This document shows positions 1,268 through 37,081 of a stretch of DNA of 38,277 bases, one piece after another. The position numbers and the translations under genes were made by a program. The notes under the pieces were generated by a model. The model worked only from the letters and a program-made list of their open reading frames with translations. It was not told the origin of the DNA and searched no databases. This stretch comes from a virus. How positions within the stretch are numbered: the first letter of the stretch is position 1; each line of letters opens with the position of its first letter. The stretch lies in UHGV virus genome UHGV-0391791, one strand, 5' to 3'.

Positions 1268-3070
1268 TTAACCTCTCAAGAAACACGCCACAGCGACATC
1301 AAACAGGCTGGAATCCTGTATTGCCTGCTCACTTTCCCTGTTCGCTTCATCCAGTACTTCACGCGCGCTGCGCGATTGTGGATTACCATCATCATCCAGC
1401 ACGGTGATTATCATGTCAGGTGATTCAAGCAGCGAGTCTTCAGCTATGCGCAGATCAATATCTCCTGCCTTATCTGACATCATTTTTTGTTCTGCCTGTT
1501 GCAATATTTTATCAGGCTCAAAAGGAGCTACTTCGTCTGGCGTCCTGACCTCTGCTGTTTTATAGAATGAAACAGCCTGAGCATTAAGTTCACTTTCTGC
1601 CTGCTGTCTCCGAGCCAGTTCTGCTCGAGCTTCAAAAAGCTGACCGCCAGGCTCGTGCGGTGCCAACGCGTTACGGGAAAATTCCAGGCGTTCTTGTGCC
1701 TGCCGGATTCGTTGATCAATATCGCGAAGTCTGGCCTGTTTATCTGATCGAGCACGAGACAAAGCTTTACCGCTACCGGTTGGCTCTTCTGCAAGAATTT
1801 GTGCACGCTGTTCAGTGAGATTTTCAATAATTCGTTGGCTATTAGCGATTTCAGACTGGTAAACCTGTCTATCTCCACGCGGCAAAAGCTGCGCGGCCTG
1901 TTCTTCAAGCAACCGATTTTCTATAGCGCGCGCCGTTACTCCATCATCTACAGATGACAGAGCCTCATTAACTGCCTGAGACAGCAGACTCTTGCGCCCA
2001 GGAATTTCACTGAAAGATGCAGACTCAACAATGCTGGCAACGTCTACAGGTCTCCCCTGGCTAACATCAGACATAGCTTTTCGCAGAGCCTGAATGTGAG
2101 AATTGCGCGAAAGCACGTTGATCGGCACGCCGGGCGCAATATCAATTTCAGCATGATGAGCGGCATTCGCCGCCAGTGCAGCATCGATATCAACTGGTGA
2201 AAAATTTGGTGCGTTTGTAGACTCGCCGCGAGAGTTAATAAATCTGCCGACACCACCAAACGCCACCCCAAGAACAGCATCAATAGCAATTGCCTGTCGA
2301 TCCAACACATCATACTGGTTAGCCATTTCGCTATAGCCACCATCACGAAGCGTTTTTGCAGTAAGCCCACGCTGTGCCATACCGAACGCAATATTTGTAC
2401 CTGCGGCATAGGCAATATCTGGCGTTGCACGTACTGCTGTTGCTGCGGCGCGTCGTACTGAACTTTCACCCGTCCGCGCGAGCTGAGCCGCCACACCTTC
2501 CGCCAGCGCACCACCAGCACGTAACCCGAGGCTCATAGGGATCAATGTCCCGGCCCCAGCAGTAATGCCCTGCACTAATCCCGCTTCCTGCGCTGTCCTG
2601 AAATCAACACCCTGTGCTGTCAGCCGTTCAAACTCAGAAAAACCCTGTAGCGAAGTTACCGCCGCTGCACCTCCGACAGGACCACCGAGCGTTGTACCGA
2701 CAACAGCCTGCCCGCCCATATCGAACAACCCATAAAGAACCTGCCCGGCGGTTCCGGTTGTCGCGGCATCAGGCGTCAGCCGCTTAACCTGCTGCTCTGC
2801 TAGTTTTCTCTGCTCGGCAATGTATGAAACTGAAGTGTCATTGAGCGAGGTGTTTTCGTTAACAAACTGAGCAATCGGGGATACGATTTTATCCATCCCT
2901 GCCCATAGCAACTGATCTGGCTTTGCCACCAGCCCGGAGTACAAACCAGACAATGCCGCTCCTACAGCATTGTCGAAAAAACCAACATCGCTGTTAAAGC
3001 CAGCTGGATTTGATACTGCTTCGTCAAGCTGCTGATTCTGGTTTACTGGATTAAGGCCAAAGTAACTCAT
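1268..3070 (-). CDS. Internal virion/ejection protein (600 aa), Gly/Ala-rich central segment
   Basis: Track ORF; lies in the run of large genes downstream of the tail tube genes; start overlaps upstream gene stop (3067..3070), typical translational coupling. Confidence 0.55.
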   Translation of the reverse strand: MSYFGLNPVNQNQQLDEAVSNPAGFNSDVGFFDNAVGAALSGLYSGLVAKPDQLLWAGMDKIVSPIAQFVNENTSLNDTSVSYIAEQRKLAEQQVKRLTPDAATTGTAGQVLYGLFDMGGQAVVGTTLGGPVGGAAAVTSLQGFSEFERLTAQGVDFRTAQEAGLVQGITAGAGTLIPMSLGLRAGGALAEGVAAQLARTGESSVRRAAATAVRATPDIAYAAGTNIAFGMAQRGLTAKTLRDGGYSEMANQYDVLDRQAIAIDAVLGVAFGGVGRFINSRGESTNAPNFSPVDIDAALAANAAHHAEIDIAPGVPINVLSRNSHIQALRKAMSDVSQGRPVDVASIVESASFSEIPGRKSLLSQAVNEALSSVDDGVTARAIENRLLEEQAAQLLPRGDRQVYQSEIANSQRIIENLTEQRAQILAEEPTGSGKALSRARSDKQARLRDIDQRIRQAQERLEFSRNALAPHEPGGQLFEARAELARRQQAESELNAQAVSFYKTAEVRTPDEVAPFEPDKILQQAEQKMMSDKAGDIDLRIAEDSLLESPDMIITVLDDDGNPQSRSAREVLDEANRESEQAIQDSSLFDVAVACFLRG

Positions 3071-5580
3071 TGCGGAATATCTCCGGAGAATCTCTGACGC
3101 TTCTGTGTCAGATCAAGAACAACAGGAGAACCATCATCCTTCAGCAGATATCCAGTCCCAAGTTTTACCAGGTACTGACTATCGCCGTAACTTTGCAAAC
3201 CATACTGACCAGGCGGTGTTTTTATCCCTGTGCCGACAACTTGTTCATTCCAAGCCTGATTAACCTGCTTATCGAATTGCTCTGCAGACATTCCCCACGG
3301 CAAAAGGACATTCCCCATTCCGTTATAGTCATGCACGCCACCTGTAGCTACGTTAACAGCCTGTTTCCAGATATCATTGTCAATTTCGCCTGATACCACG
3401 CCTTTTTTCGCCATCACACCAGCGTAATAGTCCTTTGCGATCTCGTATGCCATTGATGCCCCCTGAGCATCACCAGCAAATGCATCCTTCACCATGTCAG
3501 AAAACTCAAGGCGAAGATCAGCATCTTTAGGCATCGGAATACCTTTCGCATCATCAGTACCTTTACGAGCCGCCGCGCCAGCAAGAATTGTCTGCGCAGC
3601 GGTTTCAGGTGACACGGAAACATCCGGATTAAACCAGTTTTTTTCTGCCAAAATACCACCAGGTTTATCCATCAGTATCCCGGCAACGGCAGCAGATGGA
3701 GCGTTGGCACTGATCTGCTGTAGTGCTGACATATACACCTGCCCACCACCAGTGCTTTGCCTGATGGTATCGAGATATGCTGCCTGTTGGGAAACGGGCG
3801 CATCACGAAAGAAAACACCGATCTGATTGGCCTCGTCTTTGGAAAAGAACGTCAGTGGAGTGCCATATGACTTGGCAAGGTCACTGACCTGAGCGGCACG
3901 CAAGGCAACGCTCTGTCCAAAGTTATCCTTATTGCTCATGTCGATAGGCTTTGCCTGTCCGGCGGCAAGAGAGAACTGCACAGGATCCGACTGCCGCTGC
4001 TTTATCACCTGATTTGCAGCCGAAACAACGTTGTCATAAAGAGCTGCGCGTGCCGCATACCCCTCCCCTGTCTCACCAGTATCCGGGCGTAATTGCTCAA
4101 CATATGCTGTAATGCTGCTTGTCGGCATGTTGCGGAAAGAGCCTATATACTGTCCGGCGATCTGCGTATTTCTGAACTCGGTATATCGCAGGTTTCCTTC
4201 TCTGACGCCATAAGCTGCAATAAAATCAGCCTCACCAGGTGGATTAGGAAATTCAACGCCACGCATATACGCAGCCGTCGCATCGCGAACCTGGCTGTCA
4301 ATCATCGTTTTATATTCAGCCTGCTGCTGCCGACGCAGTTGATCCGCCTGTCGCATATAACTTGCCTGCGCCTCAGGAGATGCCGCATCGAATGCTGCAT
4401 TACCGGTATAGCGTTTGGTGTTGGTTGGAATTGTTGATAAACCAAGTGCTGCACTGACACCAGCAGTTAACTGCTGATCACTGTATGGCTGGCTACCGTT
4501 CTCATGATGGATAATGGCTGCACAAAGCGCCTTCAGGGTATCAGGATTTGATGCATCGAGAGGCTCATCAGCAGAAACGCCAAGTTGTTCGCACACTGCT
4601 TTGATATACGACATAGTGTCATTTTTATCAGTAGGCGGTGCCCAGCGATTAATTATCTCGCTGACTGTATCAATACCCTGCCGCTGATACGACATCAGGT
4701 TCCGCCCTAATGCACGAATCCCGTGTTCAGGTGTTTCGAATTTAGCAAATCGACCATCATCACCGGTCTGGCCTACCCACGGATTAGTTTTGCTGTATTC
4801 GAGATTTCCTGGGTTATTGTTGCGTATGCCACGGGCACGCTCGGAAGAGTCACTATCTGCTACAGCACGGCGAGCTCCAGCAGCAGTATCACTTAACTCG
4901 CCATTACTTTGGATGAATGCGGTCGCATTGTTTGCCGACCACTGGGACAATGCAGCATCAGCAACCTTCTCTTTAAACTCGATTTTCTTGGCCTGGATTT
5001 GCTCGTCACTCCAGCCATGTGCAATGCCGTAATCCTCAATTTGCTGGAAAGTTTGCTTATTAGCCAATACGTATGCGGCGTTGTCGCCATACAATGCTGC
5101 GGCATTTTTACCATTGTTCAGCAGCGCAGCCTGAAACTGGCCTTCTTCGTAGGCATTTATTTGCCCTATCTCGTGCCGCCCTGCCTGCGTAGTGAACTGA
5201 ATGCGCTGCTGCTGCGCCTGCTGCATGAAAGCATTACGAGCCTGTTCATCCGGCAGCGACATAGCCAGTTGTTCGACCTGAGCATCAAACTGCTGCGTAT
5301 ACTCCTGACCTTTTCCAATAGCATTTTTCCCTTTCAGGTTAAGCAATCCTGTTTCAGGATTATTCAGCAGATCGCTGCTTATCTGGCTTAAGCTAAGAGA
5401 AGCATCCTGAGCCATAGCAACATTCGCACGCTGTTTTGCCTGCGCAATAATACCTGCATATTGCTCTGCAACATCGCCAAGTACATCACCGACATTTAGT
5501 GTCTGAAACGATGAGAATCCCTGCGTCGAAATCCCTCTGCTCTGAACCTGACGGCCCGATGTTGTTGGTACAACTGGCAT
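3067..5580 (-). CDS. Large internal virion protein (837 aa), in the position of T7 gp15-type core proteins; possible peptidoglycan-degrading segment
   Basis: Track ORF; size and position in the structural operon; central segment GIRNNNPGNLEYSKTNPWVGQ recalled as muralytic-like (unverified). Confidence 0.55.
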   Translation of the reverse strand: MPVVPTTSGRQVQSRGISTQGFSSFQTLNVGDVLGDVAEQYAGIIAQAKQRANVAMAQDASLSLSQISSDLLNNPETGLLNLKGKNAIGKGQEYTQQFDAQVEQLAMSLPDEQARNAFMQQAQQQRIQFTTQAGRHEIGQINAYEEGQFQAALLNNGKNAAALYGDNAAYVLANKQTFQQIEDYGIAHGWSDEQIQAKKIEFKEKVADAALSQWSANNATAFIQSNGELSDTAAGARRAVADSDSSERARGIRNNNPGNLEYSKTNPWVGQTGDDGRFAKFETPEHGIRALGRNLMSYQRQGIDTVSEIINRWAPPTDKNDTMSYIKAVCEQLGVSADEPLDASNPDTLKALCAAIIHHENGSQPYSDQQLTAGVSAALGLSTIPTNTKRYTGNAAFDAASPEAQASYMRQADQLRRQQQAEYKTMIDSQVRDATAAYMRGVEFPNPPGEADFIAAYGVREGNLRYTEFRNTQIAGQYIGSFRNMPTSSITAYVEQLRPDTGETGEGYAARAALYDNVVSAANQVIKQRQSDPVQFSLAAGQAKPIDMSNKDNFGQSVALRAAQVSDLAKSYGTPLTFFSKDEANQIGVFFRDAPVSQQAAYLDTIRQSTGGGQVYMSALQQISANAPSAAVAGILMDKPGGILAEKNWFNPDVSVSPETAAQTILAGAAARKGTDDAKGIPMPKDADLRLEFSDMVKDAFAGDAQGASMAYEIAKDYYAGVMAKKGVVSGEIDNDIWKQAVNVATGGVHDYNGMGNVLLPWGMSAEQFDKQVNQAWNEQVVGTGIKTPPGQYGLQSYGDSQYLVKLGTGYLLKDDGSPVVLDLTQKRQRFSGDIPQ

Positions 5581-5592
5581 CTTATTATCCCC

Positions 5593-6132
5593 TTATCGAC
5601 CGGTTGGAGTGCCAACAGCAGCAGAAATCGGCGCAGCCTTCTGAGAGAACGGGCTCCACGTTCCTCCGCCCATCTGGTATGCACCGTATGCTTTTAGTGG
5701 TGCCGTTAACAAAGTGCTGGTCATCGATGATTTAGCAGCCGACTGAGCAGCAGCCCCCTGTGCCCGAGCATTCATTCCCTGAACCTGATACCCATATGCC
5801 TCACGCTGAGCGTTATTCACTGTCGTTAACGCATCAAGAGTGCCGAACTGAGCATTATCCGCAAAAACGTCAAGAGCTGTTCCGCTACTTAATTCCGCAC
5901 CGGTAGCCCCCATAGTGGCCGCCGCAGTGCCTGAGCGTTGACGCATTTCACGACGACGCTGATCCGCTTCAATATTCCCACGATTGATTGAATCCTGTGC
6001 CTGAGCTTCAGCAATTTCAGCATTCCGATCAGCTATGGCTGACTGGTATTTTGCCTGCTTGCTCTGGCTGTACATTGACGCGGCTGTGGATGCCACTGTG
6101 ACGGCAACCAAAGCGATGGCTGGGTTACACAT
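5593..6132 (-). CDS. Small internal virion protein (179 aa) with N-terminal hydrophobic helix and Ala/Gln-rich body
   Basis: Track ORF; N-terminus AIALVAVTVASTAAS is hydrophobic; position equivalent to T7 gp14. Confidence 0.45.
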   Translation of the reverse strand: MCNPAIALVAVTVASTAASMYSQSKQAKYQSAIADRNAEIAEAQAQDSINRGNIEADQRRREMRQRSGTAAATMGATGAELSSGTALDVFADNAQFGTLDALTTVNNAQREAYGYQVQGMNARAQGAAAQSAAKSSMTSTLLTAPLKAYGAYQMGGGTWSPFSQKAAPISAAVGTPTGR

Positions 6133-6596
6133 TATTTTCTCTCCATGTGAAATCTGTGGAAATTAAGACCAAGAGCACCATAAGGCGCGGCTTCTTCAAG
6201 CCTGAATCCAAGCCAGTGCAGCCATGCTTTGGCAACGTGGTTTCGCTCGTCGACGTAGTTTTCCAGGCGCGGATAAACTGCCAGCATCTGCTGCAATACA
6301 GGGCGGCAGTGGCGAAGAAATGTCTTCTGATATTTTTCGATACGGCTGGTTCCGACCAGCCAGGGCGTACCATTGCCACCGATCATTGACGCCGGAGATA
6401 CGCCAAACATGGTTACCAGTTCTCCGTTCGCAAATCCTGACCAGGCCATAGTCGCAGTACGCAGACCAACACGCAGCGCATCTTCGGTAGTCATCAGCGA
6501 TACCGCATACAGTTCGTCAATATCAGCCTGACGAACATCCGGCAAAATCATCTGAAGATGCTCTTCGGTTGCGGGAATAATTTGAACATCGATCAT
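6132..6596 (-). CDS. Virion/tail-associated protein (154 aa)
   Basis: Track ORF; start abuts stop of the upstream tail tube B-like gene; structural operon context. Confidence 0.45.
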   Translation of the reverse strand: MIDVQIIPATEEHLQMILPDVRQADIDELYAVSLMTTEDALRVGLRTATMAWSGFANGELVTMFGVSPASMIGGNGTPWLVGTSRIEKYQKTFLRHCRPVLQQMLAVYPRLENYVDERNHVAKAWLHWLGFRLEEAAPYGALGLNFHRFHMERK

Positions 6597-31503: not shown

Positions 31504-33966
31504 TCAATTCCCTGTTAATTGCAAAACTTGCTCTTCCAGCTTTTTAACCCTGCGTCTCATCATCGCAGATTCCAGAATCAGAGCCTCTTCATAACGGATA
31601 CCGTAACATTCACCAGCCTCGACGGCTTCGCGTACCAGAACCTTTGTCTGTATAAGTGGGTAAACTCCTGCAGAATGCTCTTCTTCCGTCACATCCCTGT
31701 ATTCTGCCGGGGTCTCATTCCACTTGTCATAACAGATAAATGCCAGTCGTGACACATCTATGCCTTCATTCTGAAATACACTGATAACATGCTGCGCAAC
31801 TGCACCAAAGTGCCATCTTGCTCCGTCTTTACCTTTCACTTCGATCCTGTCAAGGTACTGGTATGAAACCCATTCCACTCTTTCCCATGCGTCCAGTATT
31901 TTCTCATCAATAACCTCTGGAGCAGTCTTGAAACGCGCATCGGACAGCACCGTAAACGCTGACTGGGTAAATCCCCCCGACCATGCACGACCAGCCAACC
32001 CAAGAGAATAAGTATTCGTTGTCGATGGTGTCATGGCTGAATCAGAAAACTGTATATATTCTGAATTTCCAGTAGATATTCGAATATTTCCATTTATTAG
32101 CGACATAGTGCCTTTAGTATTATCACTATTGAATAATTTCAATTGCGAACTTATACCGCCTCCCACAGCCAGAGATACATCGCCTTCAGCAAGCATTCTG
32201 AATTTATCTGCAGAAACAAGCGTCTGGTTAGCAAGGTTAAAATATTTAACCCACCATTCAAAACGCCCTGACATAGTCCCAACGTACTGACCAAGCGCAG
32301 GGACGTGAACAACATTGCTATTTGTAGTGCCGTCTATACTGGAAATACCAGTCACCGCTGATGCAGAACTCAGAATATTATTTCTGTCACCCGGATGTTT
32401 AATTTCAACAAAGTTCCTGATACACCCTTCCTCGAAGGTAACCACGCCGGAAGAACTATACATGGGGAATATTGACGCATAATTACTGCGTGCAGCATCT
32501 AAGAAACGAATGGTTGTAGATGTCTGCAGATCTCCTGATTCATTTTTCCCATCACACCCAGTCATTAGAATATTACTGGCAATATTATTATTTCCCTGAA
32601 CGGTGACTCCGTGCGCCTGCTTTGCGTCCGATTCAGAGTAATCAACCAGCACATTCGAAATCAGGTTACCAGTCCCCTTGCCAACAACTACTGCGGCGTA
32701 TTTTGGGTTGTTAGCCATTACACTGCTAATGATATTATTCGTTGGGGCAGTTTCCGTCTCAGTTCCATTGTAAACAACGTGCTGACACTCTTCACCAATA
32801 ACATTGCTGACAATGTTATATTTTGCTGCTGTTTTAAGTTCCACTGCACCAAACTGAGGATAATTTCTGGCTATCACACCATCAATTAGCGTATTTTGCG
32901 ATGAATCAAAAAGCACACAACCTGCTTTTTTATTATTTGCGAACCCTAAATACTCTCCTCTTATATCTCTAACAATGTAACCTGACGGAATACCATTATT
33001 CGGATAAGCGATCAAGCTAAATCCTGTTCCTCGCGTATTTGTAAATCTGATATTTTTAACCGATACATCATGGCCACCTGAAAATGACACCTGGTGTCCC
33101 TGCACACTATCATCTGATTTATTTCCCATAATTGTTAGCGTACTAAGCATGCCACCATCGGGCATGTTAAAAACCAGATGATTACCATCTCTGTCATACT
33201 GTTTTATCGTTCCCCCACCTGTTCCGTACAAGCCACAACGTGAAAGAGAAACTAAAGATGTATTGAATACCCCTTCCGGAACAAAAACACTGCTAAACGA
33301 ATGTAATGATTTTGTAAAAGCATCCTTGTTATCATTTAAGATTCCATTTTGAGCTCCAAAATCCTTAATGCTGACACCATCACGCATCTTATCCTGGAAC
33401 GTTCTGTATACCGCTCCAGAACCATACTGAATAAACCAACCAAAACCACCAATAACTCCGGCGATTGCAGCATCGACATAATTACGCATTGAGCGATTAT
33501 TTACAGCGTCCTGCTCAAGTGATGGATCGGCAAGGTTAGATATTCTGTTTTGCTTTGCATCGTAATATTTTGCAAGCAAAGATGGTTTCATCAATGCACG
33601 TCTGAACCACCCAAAACATCGCTGGATCAGCATCGTCAGGTAGTCAAATGCATCCTCATGAACTTCGGGGAAAAATTTTCCCTGATTGCGAAGATCAGTC
33701 TCCTGCACCACATCAAGCACACGCTCTATCGTGATTCGCCAGCCAGCAGCAAGCGGCGACGGAAGAACCACTGCACCGCCACTATAAGTTCCCGCCCCTG
33801 TTACCGTATAACCAGCATCCAGCACTAGTTTTGTAACGTTACCGTTAAGGTCAGACACCTGAACAACCAGGTCGGATTTTTTGAAAATACGGAAGGTATA
33901 CGGAAATGATGTCGTAACGCCGTTACCTGTGTATTCGTTGTGGTCAACTTCGGTTGAGACCGTCAT
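31504..33966 (-). CDS. Tailspike / tail fibre (820 aa) with C-terminal intramolecular chaperone (peptidase S74-like) domain
   Basis: Track ORF; Asn/Gly/Ser-rich central region; C-terminal block ...SDARFKTAPEVIDEKILDAWERVEWVSYQYLD...GARWHFGAVAQHV typical of self-cleaving chaperone domains. Confidence 0.8.
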   Translation of the reverse strand: MTVSTEVDHNEYTGNGVTTSFPYTFRIFKKSDLVVQVSDLNGNVTKLVLDAGYTVTGAGTYSGGAVVLPSPLAAGWRITIERVLDVVQETDLRNQGKFFPEVHEDAFDYLTMLIQRCFGWFRRALMKPSLLAKYYDAKQNRISNLADPSLEQDAVNNRSMRNYVDAAIAGVIGGFGWFIQYGSGAVYRTFQDKMRDGVSIKDFGAQNGILNDNKDAFTKSLHSFSSVFVPEGVFNTSLVSLSRCGLYGTGGGTIKQYDRDGNHLVFNMPDGGMLSTLTIMGNKSDDSVQGHQVSFSGGHDVSVKNIRFTNTRGTGFSLIAYPNNGIPSGYIVRDIRGEYLGFANNKKAGCVLFDSSQNTLIDGVIARNYPQFGAVELKTAAKYNIVSNVIGEECQHVVYNGTETETAPTNNIISSVMANNPKYAAVVVGKGTGNLISNVLVDYSESDAKQAHGVTVQGNNNIASNILMTGCDGKNESGDLQTSTTIRFLDAARSNYASIFPMYSSSGVVTFEEGCIRNFVEIKHPGDRNNILSSASAVTGISSIDGTTNSNVVHVPALGQYVGTMSGRFEWWVKYFNLANQTLVSADKFRMLAEGDVSLAVGGGISSQLKLFNSDNTKGTMSLINGNIRISTGNSEYIQFSDSAMTPSTTNTYSLGLAGRAWSGGFTQSAFTVLSDARFKTAPEVIDEKILDAWERVEWVSYQYLDRIEVKGKDGARWHFGAVAQHVISVFQNEGIDVSRLAFICYDKWNETPAEYRDVTEEEHSAGVYPLIQTKVLVREAVEAGECYGIRYEEALILESAMMRRRVKKLEEQVLQLTGN

Positions 33967-34142: not shown

Positions 34143-34162
34143 ATTGCATGGAGAAGATTAAG

Positions 34163-34420
34163 ATGCAGCAGTATCACTATCCACTGGAAGAGGGATTTAC
34201 CGAAAGGATTCACACGCCGGGAGGCGTCAGGTCACTGGTGGAGGGATCGCACTTGATGAAATTACTCCGGGATCTCGATAAGGATGGATTTAATGTCGAT
34301 GGCCCACTTGCCGAACTGACTGCACTGATTAACTACGTCACCAGCTCACAGATGTCTATGCAGGATCTGCAAACACATCTCGACTATTGTGCCGAACAAT
34401 TACGAAAACAAACCAGATAA
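34163..34420 (+). CDS. Small protein homologous to the C-terminal domain of the downstream antirepressor (about 85 aa from MQQYHYP); candidate SOS-induced antirepressor
   Basis: In-frame part of track ORF 34148..34420; SD GGAGAAG; IHTPGGVRSLVEGSHLMKLLRDLDKDGFNVDGPLAELTALINY aligns with [43 protein letters not shown] of 34738..35394. Confidence 0.5.
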   Translation: MQQYHYPLEEGFTERIHTPGGVRSLVEGSHLMKLLRDLDKDGFNVDGPLAELTALINYVTSSQMSMQDLQTHLDYCAEQLRKQTR

Positions 34421-34737: not shown

Positions 34738-35394
34738 ATGAACGCTCAACTCATCCCCGTATTCAACGGCACTATATCTAACGAAACAGCCCTACTTTGT
34801 AATGCCCGCGATCTGCACGCTTTTTTAGGTGTTAAAAAGGTGTTTGCAGCATGGATTACAAATCGCATATCAGAATACGAATTCATTGAAAATCAAGACT
34901 ATATTTTGCTTTCCAATTTGGGAAAGCAAACATCTGGTAGAGGCGGCCACAACCGCAAAGAGTACCACCTCACCCTTGATACAGCCAAAGAGCTGGCGAT
35001 GGTCGAGCGTAACGAAAAAGGTCGCCAGGTGCGACGCTACTTCATTGAATGCGAGAAACGTTTAAGACAACAAGAAACAAAAGTGGAGAAGGTCTTGTCA
35101 GGCTTCATGCCCGCCATTATGGAGGCGATCAAGCTGGAAGACAAAAAAGAATACAGTGCCCCACTGAAGCCCGGCTACCGCAGCCTGATTCACTCGCCGT
35201 CTGGTGTTCTCGGCCTGACGGAGAACTCACTGCTGATGAATCTGCTGAACCAGTTACAGGACGACGGGCACGACGTATCGGGCGCGGCGGCGGAGCTGAC
35301 CACCATGTTCTGCTACATCGTTGGTGTGAGCAAATGCCTGCGTGATATCCAGACGCACGCGGAGTACATCAACGACAAGGCAGGGTTCTTCTGA
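34738..35394 (+). CDS. Antirepressor (218 aa), AntA/AntB-type N-terminal domain plus C-terminal domain shared with 34163..34420
   Basis: Track ORF; N-terminal segment ...[30 protein letters not shown]...[42 protein letters not shown] recalled as antirepressor-type; SD GGAGA. Confidence 0.65.
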
Positions 35395-35466
35395 CGGGCG
35401 GCGGCACAGGGATGTGCCTTTAAATAATTCTGTACAGATTGCAGACTGGGGGTGAATAGCGTACTA

Positions 35467-35481
35467 TTACCTCAAGGGTAA
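35467..35481. promoter_or_regulatory. Operator site TTACCTCAAGGGTAA upstream of the 35541 gene
   Basis: Perfect dyad about 60 bp upstream of the start codon. Confidence 0.55.
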
Positions 35482-35540
35482 GAAAGCATTTTTAATCTTC
35501 CCTTCAAAACGCGTCCTGTAGCCAAACATGGGAGGACGAA

Positions 35541-36173
35541 ATGAGAACAAATACAACAAGAAAAGCGATGCCATACATTATCCCAGAAGCAGATTTCGAT
35601 AGAAAACTGAACATGTCTGAGAAGAACACTAGTCACACCGAAAGCTACTTAGCGAAAGGTGTGGTTGATTTCGTTCTTCCGGGATTCACAACACCTTATG
35701 GTTATCGCCTTGTAAAATCTTGTAATGGCGATCATTACAGAATGATTACTACCAGCGATACTCCAGAAACGGTGTATGCGGTTAAGTTAATCTTTCGGGA
35801 AGATATCGTCGAAGCCAAAAGAACATGTACGCAGATCATGGTATGGCGTACGCCTAATGTTATTCATGACCGTGCTGTTCATGGTTTGCCTCAGATTTTT
35901 TTTCAGTTCTTCCTAGAGCAATATGCGATCGTTGTATCTGATGAGCAACAAACAATCGATGGGAGAAGATTCTGGGAAAGAATGATTTCTTGGGCTATAA
36001 ACACCCCAGGATATAATGTATACGTTTCAGATGGCTCTGAAGAAGATAGACCTCTTAGCTTCATGACATCATGGGATGATTTCTATAGCCAGTGGGCTGA
36101 TTTCTGTTGGGGCAGTGATAAAGATGTGCATACCCACAGACTACTGGTTATAAGCAAAGATAAACTGCATTAA
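35541..36173 (+). CDS. Orphan hypothetical protein (210 aa), moron with its own operator and terminator
   Basis: Track ORF; strong SD GGAGGA 5 nt upstream; no motif recognised; surrounding DNA is AT-rich by eye. Confidence 0.5.
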   Translation: MRTNTTRKAMPYIIPEADFDRKLNMSEKNTSHTESYLAKGVVDFVLPGFTTPYGYRLVKSCNGDHYRMITTSDTPETVYAVKLIFREDIVEAKRTCTQIMVWRTPNVIHDRAVHGLPQIFFQFFLEQYAIVVSDEQQTIDGRRFWERMISWAINTPGYNVYVSDGSEEDRPLSFMTSWDDFYSQWADFCWGSDKDVHTHRLLVISKDKLH

Positions 36174-36176
36174 TAG

Positions 36177-36199
36177 AAGCCCGCAGCGCGGGCTTTTTT
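36177..36199 (+). terminator. Rho-independent terminator after the 210-aa gene
   Basis: AAGCCCGC-agc-GCGGGCTT followed by TTTTTTG. Confidence 0.7.
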
Positions 36200-36271
36200 G
36201 TGGACGAAACAAAAGTCAGTGCTACACTCATTGACGCCACATTGAGGTGGCTTATAGATGGAAATTTCACA

Positions 36272-36433
36272 ATGAAAAAAGCATTTGCTGCACTGTTCGT
36301 TTTGTTGTCTCTGGTAGCTTCAACTCAGGCCTTTGCCGGTCGTTGTCAGCACGACAGCGACACTGCTGCTGACGGCTCCCGCTGCGGTGGGCGTTCTGCG
36401 GATTCCCGCCCGGGTGGCGGTGGCATTCGTTAA
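36272..36433 (+). CDS. Small ORF for a putative secreted peptide (53 aa, signal peptide MKKAFAALFVLLSLVASTQAFA)
   Basis: In-frame part of track ORF 36200..36433; typical Sec signal with AFA-G cleavage motif; weak SD, so uncertain. Confidence 0.3.
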   Translation: MKKAFAALFVLLSLVASTQAFAGRCQHDSDTAADGSRCGGRSADSRPGGGGIR

Positions 36434-36464
36434 AAACAAGGCCGCGAAAGCGGCCTGTGACATG

Positions 36465-36845
36465 TCACGCAACGCAATTATTACCGCGCCATGTAACATT
36501 TTTAATAATCTTATCAGCACCAAACTCAACGTAAACAGAGCAACTGAAATGGAGTGTATAACCGCCATCAGTTGTTGCGTATGTGTTTGAATATATAGTA
36601 TTACCAATTAGATTAGACGTAGTATTATACGTTGTGGTTTGTGGTACGTTATAACTACCAGAGCTTGAGTAAACATACACTCTGTTTCCATCTGGAGATG
36701 TAATCTCTCCCTGAGGATACCCCCACTGCTGAACCATTGCGTCTATACTCTGCCCGCGCCACGTAAGCATATTTCTTTCAAACTGTGCAGCTGACTGGCA
36801 TCCAACGAGAAGCATAAATCCAAAAATCAAAAATACTTTTCTCAT
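36465..36845 (-). CDS. Lipoprotein (about 126 aa; signal peptide MRKVFLIFGFMLLVGC)
   Basis: Track ORF 36465..36881; internal ATG at 36845 preceded by SD AGGGG; lipobox LVGC; Tyr/Thr/Asn/Ser-rich mature part. Confidence 0.5.
   Translation of the reverse strand: MRKVFLIFGFMLLVGCQSAAQFERNMLTWRGQSIDAMVQQWGYPQGEITSPDGNRVYVYSSSGSYNVPQTTTYNTTSNLIGNTIYSNTYATTDGGYTLHFSCSVYVEFGADKIIKNVTWRGNNCVA
36466..36479. repeat. 14-bp palindrome, inverted copy TGTGACATGTCACG (copy 3 of 3), overlapping the lipoprotein stop codon and next to hairpin GGCCGC-gaaa-GCGGCC
   Basis: Reverse complement is CGTGACATGTCACA, identical to copies 1 and 2. Confidence 0.8.
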
Positions 36846-36892
36846 AATTACCCCTATCATGGAAAAACAGCACCAATCCACAAATTAACTAG

Positions 36893-37081
36893 TTATTTTA
36901 TTATTCTTCCGAACAATACAATTCCGAATACTACAAAGCCGAACCATGCCGCTGCACGCAACAGAGATTCCAATTGAAACCCATTTTTATCAAAATGTAT
37001 GAATAGCATAAAAACGCTGCACATATTAGTACAATAAAAGTTATTTGAACCATCATATCTCCTTTTATTGCGGAGTGACAT
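36893..37081 (-). CDS. Small ORF (62 aa) with hydrophobic C-terminus; uncertain
   Basis: Track ORF; start overlaps the stop of the upstream large gene; AT-rich. Confidence 0.25.
   Translation of the reverse strand: MSLRNKRRYDGSNNFYCTNMCSVFMLFIHFDKNGFQLESLLRAAAWFGFVVFGIVLFGRIIK

What the first reader, a model, noticed from the sequence alone, without database searches (positions are those of the whole stretch)
35400..37081. AT-rich accessory island: orphan 210-aa protein, small secreted peptide, lipoprotein
Between the end of the virion-protein operon and the antirepressor module lies a patch that is AT-rich by eye and carries self-contained transcription units. A 210-aa protein with no recognisable motif (35541..36173) has a perfect operator dyad and strong SD upstream and a strong terminator downstream. 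A 53-aa ORF has a canonical signal peptide. An oppositely oriented lipoprotein of about 126 aa (36465..36845) and a small hydrophobic ORF follow. Such stand-alone units in prophages are often superinfection-exclusion, anti-phage defence or host-fitness cargo; the lipoprotein is a plausible receptor-blocking exclusion factor. The 210-aa protein is the best candidate for an undescribed function, and the operator upstream suggests it is switched on at induction rather than expressed constitutively.
Basis: partly seen in the sequence, partly recalled or inferred. Interest (0 to 1): 0.65.

Follow-up and report, generated by a model that had tools for sequence, protein, structure and literature searches.

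The report
Swappable cargo slots in a prophage
This stretch is a variable accessory region of an E. coli prophage in which related phages plug different unknown genes into fixed sites; here the cargo is an uncharacterised acetyltransferase-like protein and an outer-membrane lipoprotein, which is typical prophage cargo, and no function was tested.

Summary
The window is a Uetakevirus (epsilon15/phiV10-like) E. coli prophage. Region 35400-37081 is AT-rich (42.3% vs 49.1% GC) and holds the 210-aa ORF, a 53-aa signal-peptide ORF and a 126-aa lipoprotein. The "island" has three parts. Slot A (35482-36177) lies between a conserved promoter-like leader after the antirepressor gene and a conserved terminator. 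Relatives carry at least seven other cargos there, including YafO-like toxins, DUF2335 and DUF4760. The 53-aa peptide gene is constant. Slot B lies after the last large virion gene and always holds envelope proteins; here these are a small membrane ORF and the lipoprotein.

The 210-aa protein is not an orphan. It belongs to phrog_1349, a family of about 300 clusters under strong purifying selection. It always occurs alone, in several phage types and in fixed chromosomal sites. Its model has a GNAT (acetyltransferase) fold but lacks the canonical CoA motif, and it matches no known defence system. The lipoprotein has a BamE-like fold.

The "operator dyad" is the hairpin that follows the antirepressor gene, so induction-specific control is unsupported. 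All functions remain inferred. This is an ordinary kind of locus whose anatomy is now well resolved.

The parts
34738..35394 (+). Antirepressor gene (AntA/Bro-N type), the constant left neighbour of slot A
   Evidence: Pfam AntA E 4e-26 and PHROG anti-repressor Ant. Annotated as a BRO-N protein in E. coli CE10.
35403..35418 (+).
   Evidence: It is the only perfect inverted repeat with arms of 6 or more in 35395-35540 (P about 0.19). Folding energy -10.1 kcal/mol, z -1.1. It is conserved in 9 slot variants and also follows a second ant gene in TL-2011b.
35440..35468 (+). Conserved promoter-like element TTGCAG-N17-TACTAT in the shared left flank (7/12 match to the sigma-70 consensus; inferred)
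   Evidence: Conserved upstream of seven different cargos, and sequence divergence starts about 13 nt downstream. It falls below the threshold of the consensus scan.
35482..36177 (+). Slot A cassette: the segment unique to this variant, carrying the 210-aa gene with its own leader and SD site
   Evidence: Local blastn against TL-2011b and phiv142-3 places the junctions at 35481/35482 and 36177/36178. GC is 40.9%.
35541..36173 (+). 210-aa protein of family phrog_1349: cytoplasmic, GNAT-like fold, function unknown
36175..36202 (+). Intrinsic terminator shared by all slot A variants
   Evidence: -15.3 kcal/mol, z -3.0. The stop codon of every cargo abuts the GCCCGC stem.
36272..36433 (+). 53-aa pre-peptide (Sec signal peptide plus a 31-aa mature peptide with two Cys); a constant gene of the lineage
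   Evidence: phrog_14503 E 2e-40. The exact sequence is indexed in 18,473 blocks of the assembly collection. 82-86% identical in Klebsiella Uetakevirus-like phages.
36439..36456 (-). Terminator hairpin with a U-tail on the minus strand, ending the lipoprotein transcript; it is also present in phiV10
   Evidence: -16.5 kcal/mol, z -3.5. Annotated as a terminator in phiV10.
36465..36845 (-). 126-aa outer-membrane lipoprotein, BamE/BLIP-like fold (slot B cargo)
36931..37056 (-). 41-aa single-pass membrane ORF with SD site AAGGAG, directly after the virion gene stop codon; the preferred reading of the 'small hydrophobic ORF'
   Evidence: Sequence. Its start is positionally orthologous to the phiV10p21 start. 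The single substitution seen among copies is synonymous in this frame.
36893..37081 (-). It is probably not the real gene, or it is the 3' half of a frameshifted two-TM gene.
   Evidence: Not annotated in RefSeq CE10 or in phage ZX5.
37065..38264 (-). 3' part of the 824-aa virion structural gene (cut by the window end), the constant right neighbour of slot B
   Evidence: phrog_684 virion structural protein E 2e-184. The gene is 2475 nt in CE10 and phiV10.

Best explanation
The region is the accessory (moron-type) module of a Uetakevirus prophage. It lies between the antirepressor gene and the 3' end of the late virion operon.

Anatomy:
1. Slot A is a fixed 'expression socket'. It consists of a conserved leader after ant (hairpin, then a TTGCAG-N17-TACTAT promoter-like element) and a conserved intrinsic terminator. 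Related phages carry different cargo genes between them. Here the cargo is the 210-aa gene.
2. A constant 53-aa secreted-peptide gene follows.
3. Slot B lies directly downstream of the last large virion gene and always holds envelope proteins. Here these are a 41-aa membrane ORF and a BamE-like outer-membrane lipoprotein.

Inferred functions:
- The 210-aa protein is a solitary cytoplasmic member of a large uncharacterised family with a GNAT (acyl-CoA N-acyltransferase) fold. It most likely modifies or binds a cellular or invading target to the benefit of the lysogen. It is probably transcribed from the socket in lysogen cultures.
- The lipoprotein is probably made from the late operon transcript and sorted to the outer membrane. 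There it most likely interferes with a surface step such as superinfection or re-adsorption.

What is shown and what is inferred: the anatomy, family membership, folds and variability are shown. Promoter activity, enzymatic activity, substrate and phenotype are inferred.
For: - Phage identity and variability.
- Exact mosaic junctions at 35481/35482 and 36177/36178.
- Nine slot variants with seven cargos share the left flank up to GGTAA and the right flank from the terminator stem.
- GC steps coincide with the junctions.
- 210-aa family: phrog_1349; 63 close homologues and 297 clusters; pN much lower than pS.
- The family gene is always solitary and sits in accessory positions of unrelated phage backbones: a Serratia siphophage, P1-like phage-plasmids, the lambdoid phage LLS, and prophage ends after tail fibre genes beside Imm_superinfect. 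It also occurs in syntenic chromosomal sites and in a degraded prophage remnant.
- Family-wide conserved polar residues N29, Y79, Q98, R103, D134, T138, Y161, D164 and S205.
- Cargo in the same slot of phiv142-3 (orf10) is transcribed in lysogen cultures and has a fitness phenotype (PMC7724020).
- Lipoprotein: lipobox and invariant Cys; BamE-like fold.
- In Salmonella relatives the lipoprotein gene starts 10 nt after the virion gene.
- All alternatives in slot B are membrane or secreted proteins.
Against: - No sequence-level match to any GNAT Pfam family or to any PDB chain.
- The promoter-like element matches only 7/12 and was not called by the scan. Transcription could instead read through from ant.
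- In phiv142-3 most prophage genes rose in serum, so that expression could reflect partial induction.
- No PADLOC hit for any cargo, and no clear defence-island association for the chromosomal homologues.
- Structural relatives occur in lytic jumbo phages, which does not fit a purely lysogen-protective role.
- Nothing here tests any phenotype.
Confidence: 0.6

Rival explanations
1. The 210-aa protein is a toxin or abortive-infection effector, for example a GNAT that acetylates charged tRNA. It would be held in check until phage attack, like the YafO-type toxins that occupy the same slot in sibling prophages.
Against: There is no partner gene: the cassette holds a single ORF, and no neighbour is conserved across about 25 distinct contexts. 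The gene is stably fixed in syntenic chromosomal sites across Enterobacter-clade genera. All 93 E. coli copies span the full gene at 99% identity or more. There is no PADLOC match. The MqsA fusion is a single contig with no MqsR gene nearby.
Confidence: 0.13
2. The 210-aa protein is a phage-benefit factor used during lytic growth or induction (anti-defence or host takeover). It would be co-transcribed with the antirepressor gene, and might modify a host immune protein, as the acetyltransferase AcrVA5 does (from general knowledge).
For: The gene lies directly downstream of ant on the same strand, behind only a weak hairpin. Structural or sequence relatives occur in lytic jumbo phages such as Atu_ph07 and BCSR5. 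No strong promoter of its own was found.
Against: The gene is retained in a degraded prophage remnant in Yersinia and at non-prophage syntenic sites in Enterobacter, Photorhabdus, Proteus and Morganella. It is present in only 93 of the 533 E. coli genomes that carry part of this region. Sibling cargo in the same slot has a phenotype in lysogen cultures.
Confidence: 0.15
3. The 210-aa protein is a non-catalytic GNAT-like scaffold, that is, a binding or regulatory protein and not an acyltransferase.
Against: Nine polar positions are conserved across a family with members down to about 25% identity, and purifying selection is strong. Both are typical of a catalytic or ligand-binding pocket. Divergent GNATs such as Mu Mom also lack strong sequence signatures yet bind acetyl-CoA (PMC7261163).
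Confidence: 0.2
4. One reading: the 210-aa gene is a self-contained unit with its own operator, repressed in the lysogen and switched on at induction.
For: A perfect 6-bp-arm dyad exists upstream. The antirepressor module is adjacent.
Against: The dyad lies 9 nt after the ant stop codon and is conserved regardless of cargo. It is duplicated with the 3' end of a second ant gene in TL-2011b, and it is not statistically unusual. The terminator is part of the socket and not the gene's own.
Confidence: 0.08
5. The lipoprotein is a lytic-cycle component (a spanin-like lysis factor or a virion or assembly protein) and not an accessory envelope factor.
For: It is the last gene of the late structural operon in Salmonella and Klebsiella relatives. 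A weak homologue sits at the same inter-module position in a Burkholderia phage.
Against: The holin, endolysin and lysis genes lie elsewhere, beyond the tail fibre gene. The lipoprotein is replaced by unrelated membrane or secreted proteins, or by nothing, in close relatives that are viable phages such as phiV10, TL-2011b and phiv142-3. This allele is present in only 34 of 5426 E. coli genomes.
Confidence: 0.07

Closest known systems
Morons / lysogenic-conversion cargo of temperate phages (concept of Juhala et al. 2000, from general knowledge). Within this phage group: phiv142-3 orf10 (PMC7724020) and the oac O-acetyltransferase of phiV10.
   Same: Presence/absence and replacement polymorphism among otherwise near-identical phages. 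Atypical low GC. A terminator-bounded unit placed between functional modules. One sibling cargo in the same slot has a reported host-fitness phenotype.
   Different: Here the promoter-like leader and the terminator stay fixed and only the coding cassette changes. At least seven cargos have junctions at the same two points. A classic moron brings its own promoter and terminator.
GNAT superfamily acetyltransferases, including divergent phage members such as Mu Mom (PF25680) and the GNAT toxins AtaT/TacT
   Different: No sequence-level relationship: no Pfam hit, hhalign against Mom gives probability 0.15%, and the canonical CoA motif is not conserved. There is no com-like regulator and no RHH/DUF1778 antitoxin partner.
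BamE/SmpA_OmlA, OsmE and BLIP-like small lipoproteins
   Different: No Pfam BamE hit. It has an extra long beta-hairpin sheet and two conserved Cys. It is phage-borne, at the end of a virion operon, and is not the housekeeping BAM subunit.
Phage superinfection-exclusion lipoproteins T5 Llp and Cor of phi80/N15/HK022 (from general knowledge)
   Same: A small outer-membrane lipoprotein encoded beside the tail or host-recognition genes of the phage. The proposed mode of action is blocking a surface step.
   Different: There is no detectable sequence relationship: PHROG hits are only the unknown-function families phrog_3716 and phrog_25563. The receptor of this phage group is O-antigen or capsule, not FhuA. 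No phenotype was tested.

Membership tests
GNAT (acyl-CoA N-acyltransferase) superfamily | Mixed alpha/beta GNAT fold | tested here: met
GNAT (acyl-CoA N-acyltransferase) superfamily | Motif A pyrophosphate-binding loop Q/R-x-x-G-x-G/A after strand beta4 | tested here: not met
   After the conserved W102-R103 only 5 of 223 family sequences fit the motif, against about 3.6 expected by chance. The window protein has RTPNVI at that position.
GNAT (acyl-CoA N-acyltransferase) superfamily | Sequence match to a curated GNAT profile or to a solved GNAT | tested here: not met
   No Pfam hit for the protein or for 46 diverse relatives. No PDB sequence or profile hit to a GNAT at E up to 10.
GNAT (acyl-CoA N-acyltransferase) superfamily | Binds acyl-CoA and transfers the acyl group | not testable with these tools
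   Needs biochemistry.
Mom DNA-modification family (PF25680) | Profile match to Mom, with a com-like translational activator upstream | tested here: not met
   Mu Mom itself hits PF25680 at 2e-75, while the 210-aa protein has no hit. hhalign of the family profile against Mom gives probability 0.15%. There is no upstream small ORF in the cassette.
T4 Mrh-like family (PF24070) | Profile match | tested here: not met
   The only signal is E 0.08, below the cut-off, in one distant fusion protein. hhalign against T4 Mrh and ModA.3 gives probability 0.2%.
GNAT/RHH type II toxin-antitoxin systems (AtaT, TacT, KacT) | Adjacent small antitoxin gene (RHH/DUF1778) in one operon | tested here: not met
   The cassette holds a single ORF. 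No neighbour is conserved across 64 loci.
Known anti-phage defence systems (PADLOC-DB v2.0.0) | Profile match to a catalogued defence protein | tested here: not met
   No hit for the four ORFs, for 46 relatives, or for 10 alternative slot cargos. The library dates from 2023.
Moron (autonomous accessory unit in a phage genome) | Present or absent, or replaced, between otherwise homologous phages | tested here: met
Moron (autonomous accessory unit in a phage genome) | Own promoter | tested here: inconclusive
   Only a 7/12 promoter-like element, and it belongs to the conserved flank, not to the cassette.
Moron (autonomous accessory unit in a phage genome) | Terminator downstream and atypical base composition | tested here: met
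   The terminator is confirmed but is part of the conserved flank. Cassette GC is 40.9% against 49.1%.
Bacterial lipoprotein (Lgt/LspA substrate) | N-terminal signal peptide ending in the lipobox [LVI][ASTVI][GAS]C | tested here: met
   MRKVFLIFGFMLLVGC, with Cys16 invariant in 21 homologues. Residue +2 is Gln, which predicts outer-membrane sorting under the Asp+2 retention rule (from general knowledge).
BamE / SmpA_OmlA (PF04355) | Profile match, and a role in the BAM complex | tested here: not met
Cor / Llp superinfection-exclusion lipoproteins | Sequence relationship to Cor or Llp, and receptor blocking | tested here: not met
   Sequence part: PHROG and Pfam scans return only unknown-function families. 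The receptor-blocking part cannot be tested with these tools.
Sec-dependent secreted peptide (the 53-aa ORF) | n-region, hydrophobic h-region and an AxA cleavage site | tested here: met
   By inspection only: MKK / AFAALFVLLSLVAS / TQAFA|G. No signal-peptide predictor was available.

The most novel reading that the evidence does not exclude
The 210-aa family (phrog_1349) could be a new single-gene, GNAT-fold immunity or conflict factor. It would act by acylating a phage or host macromolecule and would be spread as a stand-alone cargo among podo-, sipho-, P1-like and lambdoid prophages, and domesticated in several enterobacterial chromosomes. The fixed promoter/terminator socket after the antirepressor gene could be a general 'plug-in' site that Uetakevirus prophages use to sample such factors.
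Probability: 0.15. Interest if true: 0.65.

Novelty: new member of a known kind. Interest (0 to 1): 0.4.

Why it matters
About one in ten complete E. coli genomes (533 of 5426) carries part of this module, many of them extra-intestinal pathogens such as CE10 and APEC O1. The analysis turns a vague "AT-rich island" into a defined map. There are two exchange sites with base-pair junctions, a catalogue of at least seven slot A cargos and six slot B cargos, and one constant secreted peptide. That gives experimenters a natural, isogenic series for testing what prophage cargo does, whether exclusion, defence, toxin or virulence. One sibling cargo already has a reported serum-resistance phenotype. 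The analysis also flags a large, strongly constrained, entirely uncharacterised GNAT-like family that recurs in accessory positions of unrelated phages.

Tried and rejected
- **Mu Mom membership:** rejected (hhalign probability 0.15%).
- **T4 Mrh-like membership:** suggested by a weak Pfam hit in one fusion protein, then rejected.
- **Canonical GNAT motif A after W102-R103:** a few members looked convincing, but the count (5 of 223) equals the chance expectation, so it was dropped as evidence.
- **Functional link between the 210-aa gene and the lipoprotein:** the Serratia prophage that carries a family member also has a BamE-like 126-aa lipoprotein. The two lipoproteins are unrelated in sequence (E 3.3), and the two slots assort independently.
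- **Immunity gene downstream of a large exoprotein in Morganella:** the 1544-aa neighbour resembles a ShlA/HpmA-type haemolysin (judged by eye, not scanned) and the arrangement is lineage-specific. Not pursued.
- **Guilt by association with defence genes:** 148 neighbour clusters gave only scattered single PADLOC hits. Inconclusive.
- **LexA box at CTGTACAG...CAGA:** does not fit CTGT-N8-ACAG (read directly from the sequence).
- **AlphaFold DB (afdb50) fold search:** the library was unavailable.
- **Literature searches:** accession numbers, phrog_1349 and GNAT-type prophage defence found nothing specific.
Full report
**What the window is**

Region 35400-37081 matches E. coli chromosomes at 99.7-100% identity (AR_0086, the neonatal-meningitis strain CE10, APEC O1). 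It matches parts of the phages TL-2011b, phiv142-3, vB_EcoP_ZX5 and phiV10, the last three classified in genus Uetakevirus (epsilon15-like podophages). The local gene order is:
- tail fibre, 31504-33966 (-);
- an 85-90-aa conserved ORF (+);
- an AntA/Bro-N antirepressor gene, 34738-35394 (+);
- the finding;
- the large virion structural genes on the minus strand, beginning with the 3' end of an 824-aa protein at 37065.

The antirepressor gene is upstream of the island, and the virion operon runs into it from the right.

**Checking the observation**

All the ORFs exist at the stated coordinates.
- The 210-aa ORF has the SD site GGGAGGA 5 nt before its ATG.
- It is followed by a canonical intrinsic terminator, 36175-36197 plus a T-run (-15.3 kcal/mol, z = -3.0).
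- The 53-aa ORF reads MKK-AFAALFVLLSLVAS-TQAFA|G, a textbook Sec signal. The mature peptide has 31 residues and two Cys.
- The minus-strand ORF has the lipobox L-V-G-C. Cys16 is invariant in 21 homologues, as are two further Cys.
- A second strong hairpin (36439-36456) has its U-tail on the minus strand and ends the lipoprotein transcript.

The region is AT-rich, 42.3% GC against 49.1% for the window, which puts it in the lowest 2% of sliding windows. The AT-richness is patchy: cassette 40.9%, lipoprotein 39.9%, the spacer before it 33.8%, but the 53-aa segment 54.5%.

Two items do not hold up.

First, the dyad. The only perfect inverted repeat with arms of 6 nt or more upstream of the 210-aa gene is GGCACA-GGGA-TGTGCC at 35403-35418. 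It lies 9 nt after the ant stop codon and 123 nt before the ATG. It is not statistically unusual (P about 0.19; hairpin z = -1.1).

Second, the small ORF. The 62-aa "small hydrophobic ORF" overlaps, in another frame, a 41-aa ORF (37056-36931). That ORF has the SD site AAGGAG directly after the virion gene's stop codon. Its start codon is positionally orthologous to that of phiV10 gene 21, a 46-aa two-TM protein, and to the lipoprotein start in Salmonella relatives. The single substitution seen among E. coli copies is synonymous in the 41-aa frame and non-synonymous in the 62-aa frame. That is only a weak hint.

**Anatomy: two exchange slots around a constant gene**

Local alignment against sibling phages gives sharp mosaic junctions.
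- Window 35300-35481 is shared at 97-98% identity. It covers the ant 3' end plus 87 nt.
- Window 35482-36177 is unique.
- Window 36178-36469 is shared again.

I used the exact 53-aa protein as an anchor in public assemblies; it is indexed in 18,473 blocks of the collection. This recovered slot variants with different cargo between ant and the 53-aa gene:
- a 108-aa ORF plus a 182-aa DUF2335 protein;
- a 179-aa DUF4760 protein;
- a 181-aa YafO-toxin-like protein with a small upstream ORF;
- a 108-aa ORF plus a 170-aa weakly YafO-like protein;
- 62-aa plus 110-aa membrane proteins;
- two small ORFs (phiv142-3);
- the 210-aa gene of this window.

phiV10 lacks the slot altogether.

Aligning nine variants shows that all share the ant stop codon, the hairpin and a TTGCAG-N17-TACTAT element (35440-35468). 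They diverge just after GGTAA, about 13 nt past the -10-like hexamer. At the other end, the stop codon of every cargo abuts the GCCCGC stem of the same terminator.

So the leader and the terminator are fixed and only the coding cassette changes. The "operator dyad" belongs to the ant 3' flank: it is also duplicated, together with the end of a second ant gene, in TL-2011b.

On the other side of the 53-aa gene is a second variable position, directly after the 824-aa virion gene. In different relatives it holds:
- a 98-aa multi-TM protein;
- a 104-aa TM protein;
- a 186-aa or a 283-aa protein with a signal peptide;
- a two-TM 46-aa protein (phiV10);
- an ant/arc module;
- the lipoprotein of this window.

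Apart from the ant/arc module, every alternative is an envelope protein.

The two slots assort independently. The 210-aa gene is in 93 of 5426 complete E. coli genomes, all copies at 99% identity or more. The lipoprotein segment is in 34. The full arrangement of this window is in 16. Some part of the region is in 533. Strain CU532-9 pairs the lipoprotein with DUF2335 cargo.

**The 210-aa protein**

It has no Pfam, NCBIfam, PADLOC or PDB-sequence match. It is a full-length member of phrog_1349, a family of unknown function.

It is not an orphan. It has 63 close homologues across Enterobacterales, nearly all about 210 aa, and 297 clusters at 50% identity in an exhaustive search. None is named or annotated.

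Against homologues at 63-84% protein identity, non-synonymous divergence is 0.10-0.27 while synonymous sites are saturated at 0.74-0.81. The gene is therefore real and strongly constrained.

The family conserves a set of polar residues: N29, Y79, Q98, W102-R103, D134, T138, G141, F144-W145, Y161, D164 and S205. This suggests a pocket. The canonical CoA-pyrophosphate motif, however, is not conserved: 5 of 223 sequences, about the chance level.

Profile comparison rejects membership of the Mu Mom family and of the T4 Mrh-like family.

**Context of the 210-aa family**

The gene is always solitary. No neighbour is conserved across 64 genomic loci. It recurs in accessory positions of unrelated mobile backbones:
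- after the lysis cassette at the end of the lambdoid phage LLS;
- between tail genes, next to an ant/arc module, in Serratia siphophage-type prophages;
- on the opposite strand between baseplate genes and sit in P1-like phage-plasmids;
- right after tail fibre genes at prophage ends, beside an Imm_superinfect gene.

It also sits in a degraded prophage remnant in Yersinia. It occupies syntenic, apparently non-prophage chromosomal sites in the Enterobacter clade, Photorhabdus, Proteus and Morganella.

This pattern favours a function that benefits the cell carrying it over a step of one phage's life cycle. It does not identify that function. PADLOC scanning of 148 neighbour clusters gave only scattered hits. 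Relatives in lytic jumbo phages keep an anti-defence or host-takeover role open.

**The lipoprotein**

It belongs to phrog_3716 (unknown function). It has 37 homologues, which occur in E. coli, Shigella, Salmonella, Klebsiella, Enterobacter, Raoultella and Citrobacter.

Residue +2 is Gln, which predicts outer-membrane sorting under the Asp+2 retention rule (from general knowledge).

In Salmonella relatives the gene starts 10 nt after the 824-aa virion gene, and in Klebsiella relatives 143 nt after its homologue. It is therefore the terminal gene of the late operon. I found no convincing promoter of its own in the window.

An outer-membrane lipoprotein encoded beside the host-recognition and ejection genes is the arrangement of T5 Llp and of Cor from phi80/N15 (from general knowledge). 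There is no sequence relationship to either, so exclusion is an analogy and not a membership.

**Expression**

The only experimental evidence comes from the sibling prophage phiv142-3, whose slot flanks are 97-98% identical to the window's. Its orf10 (QGF19616.1) lies in the same slot. It was among the most up-regulated prophage genes in chicken serum (2^4.12-fold). Its deletion lowered serum survival and colonisation, and complementation restored the in vivo bacterial loads (PMC7724020).

This shows the socket is transcribed in lysogen cultures. It argues against strict induction-only expression. However, most prophage genes rose in serum, so partial induction cannot be excluded. The ZX5 paper noted that these ORFs differ among Uetakeviruses but did not study them (PMC9782041).

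**Verdict**

The operator, the induction timing and the orphan status are not supported.

The best explanation is a two-slot moron-type module. Slot A is a fixed leader/terminator socket that here carries a solitary GNAT-fold protein of a large uncharacterised family. Slot B is an envelope-protein slot at the end of the late operon that here carries a small membrane ORF and a BamE-like outer-membrane lipoprotein. A constant secreted peptide gene lies between them.

Function is inferred, not shown. I put about 0.85 on the anatomy. I put about 0.3-0.4 on "acyltransferase that benefits the lysogen" and on "envelope-acting exclusion factor".

In kind this is ordinary prophage cargo, that is, a new member of a known kind. 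Its value is a base-pair-resolved natural cassette series and a well-defined unknown family worth testing.

Noticed in passing
window 34148-34420 (+) and 34738-35394 (+): The conserved 85-90-aa ORF upstream of ant (the homologue of epsilon15 gp19 and phiV10p24) shares its C-terminal ~55 residues with the C-terminal domain of the antirepressor. Both hit phrog_450 and phrog_15539. This could be a truncated paralogue acting as a partner or competitor of Ant.
   Followed up: no
window 36931-37081 (-), A5 run near 36988: Two overlapping small ORFs each encode one hydrophobic helix. A 1-nt slip in the run GATAAAAATGG would join them into a two-TM protein of about 56 aa, resembling phiV10p21 at the same position. 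The run is identical in the three E. coli copies compared (window, CE10, CU532-9). The possibilities are an old frameshift, programmed slippage, or simply a 41-aa gene.
   Followed up: partly
window 31504-33966 (-): The 820-aa tail fibre has the conserved epsilon15-type N-terminus, and the same-length (820-aa) tail-fibre gene in the related locus L075 carries a Peptidase_S74 hit. It also has a low-GC (about 40%) central part. CE10 carries a K1 endosialidase at this position and phiV10 a different fibre. This indicates receptor-binding domain swapping next to the cargo slots.
   Followed up: no
L110 (metagenome contig) 1519-2262 and 2969-3580: A distant family member is fused to the Zn-ribbon N-domain of the MqsA antitoxin. 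A second, weaker paralogue (E 1e-5 in a search of only the 8 ORFs of this contig) lies 700 nt downstream and carries a canonical-looking R-E-G-G-L-A motif. This is a single contig with no MqsR gene nearby.
   Followed up: partly
window 35541-35567: The first nine codons of the 210-aa ORF vary in sequence but are constant in length among close homologues. Met10-Pro11 is nearly invariant, and many distant members start there. The model has pLDDT below 50 for residues 1-10. The strong SD site favours the 35541 start, but the start codon is not certain.
   Followed up: partly
L113 (Burkholderia phage vB_E332) 5001-5399: A weak homologue of the lipoprotein (28% identity, E 1e-3) sits between the tail fibre gene and the large virion genes of a Burkholderia phage with the same module order. 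If it is real, this inter-module accessory site is very old.
   Followed up: no
L081 (Serratia prophage) 4001-6459: A Serratia siphophage-type prophage carries a 210-aa family member, an ant/arc module and an unrelated BamE-like 126-aa lipoprotein side by side between tail genes. The kinds of cargo match this window, but the lipoprotein is of independent origin.
   Followed up: partly
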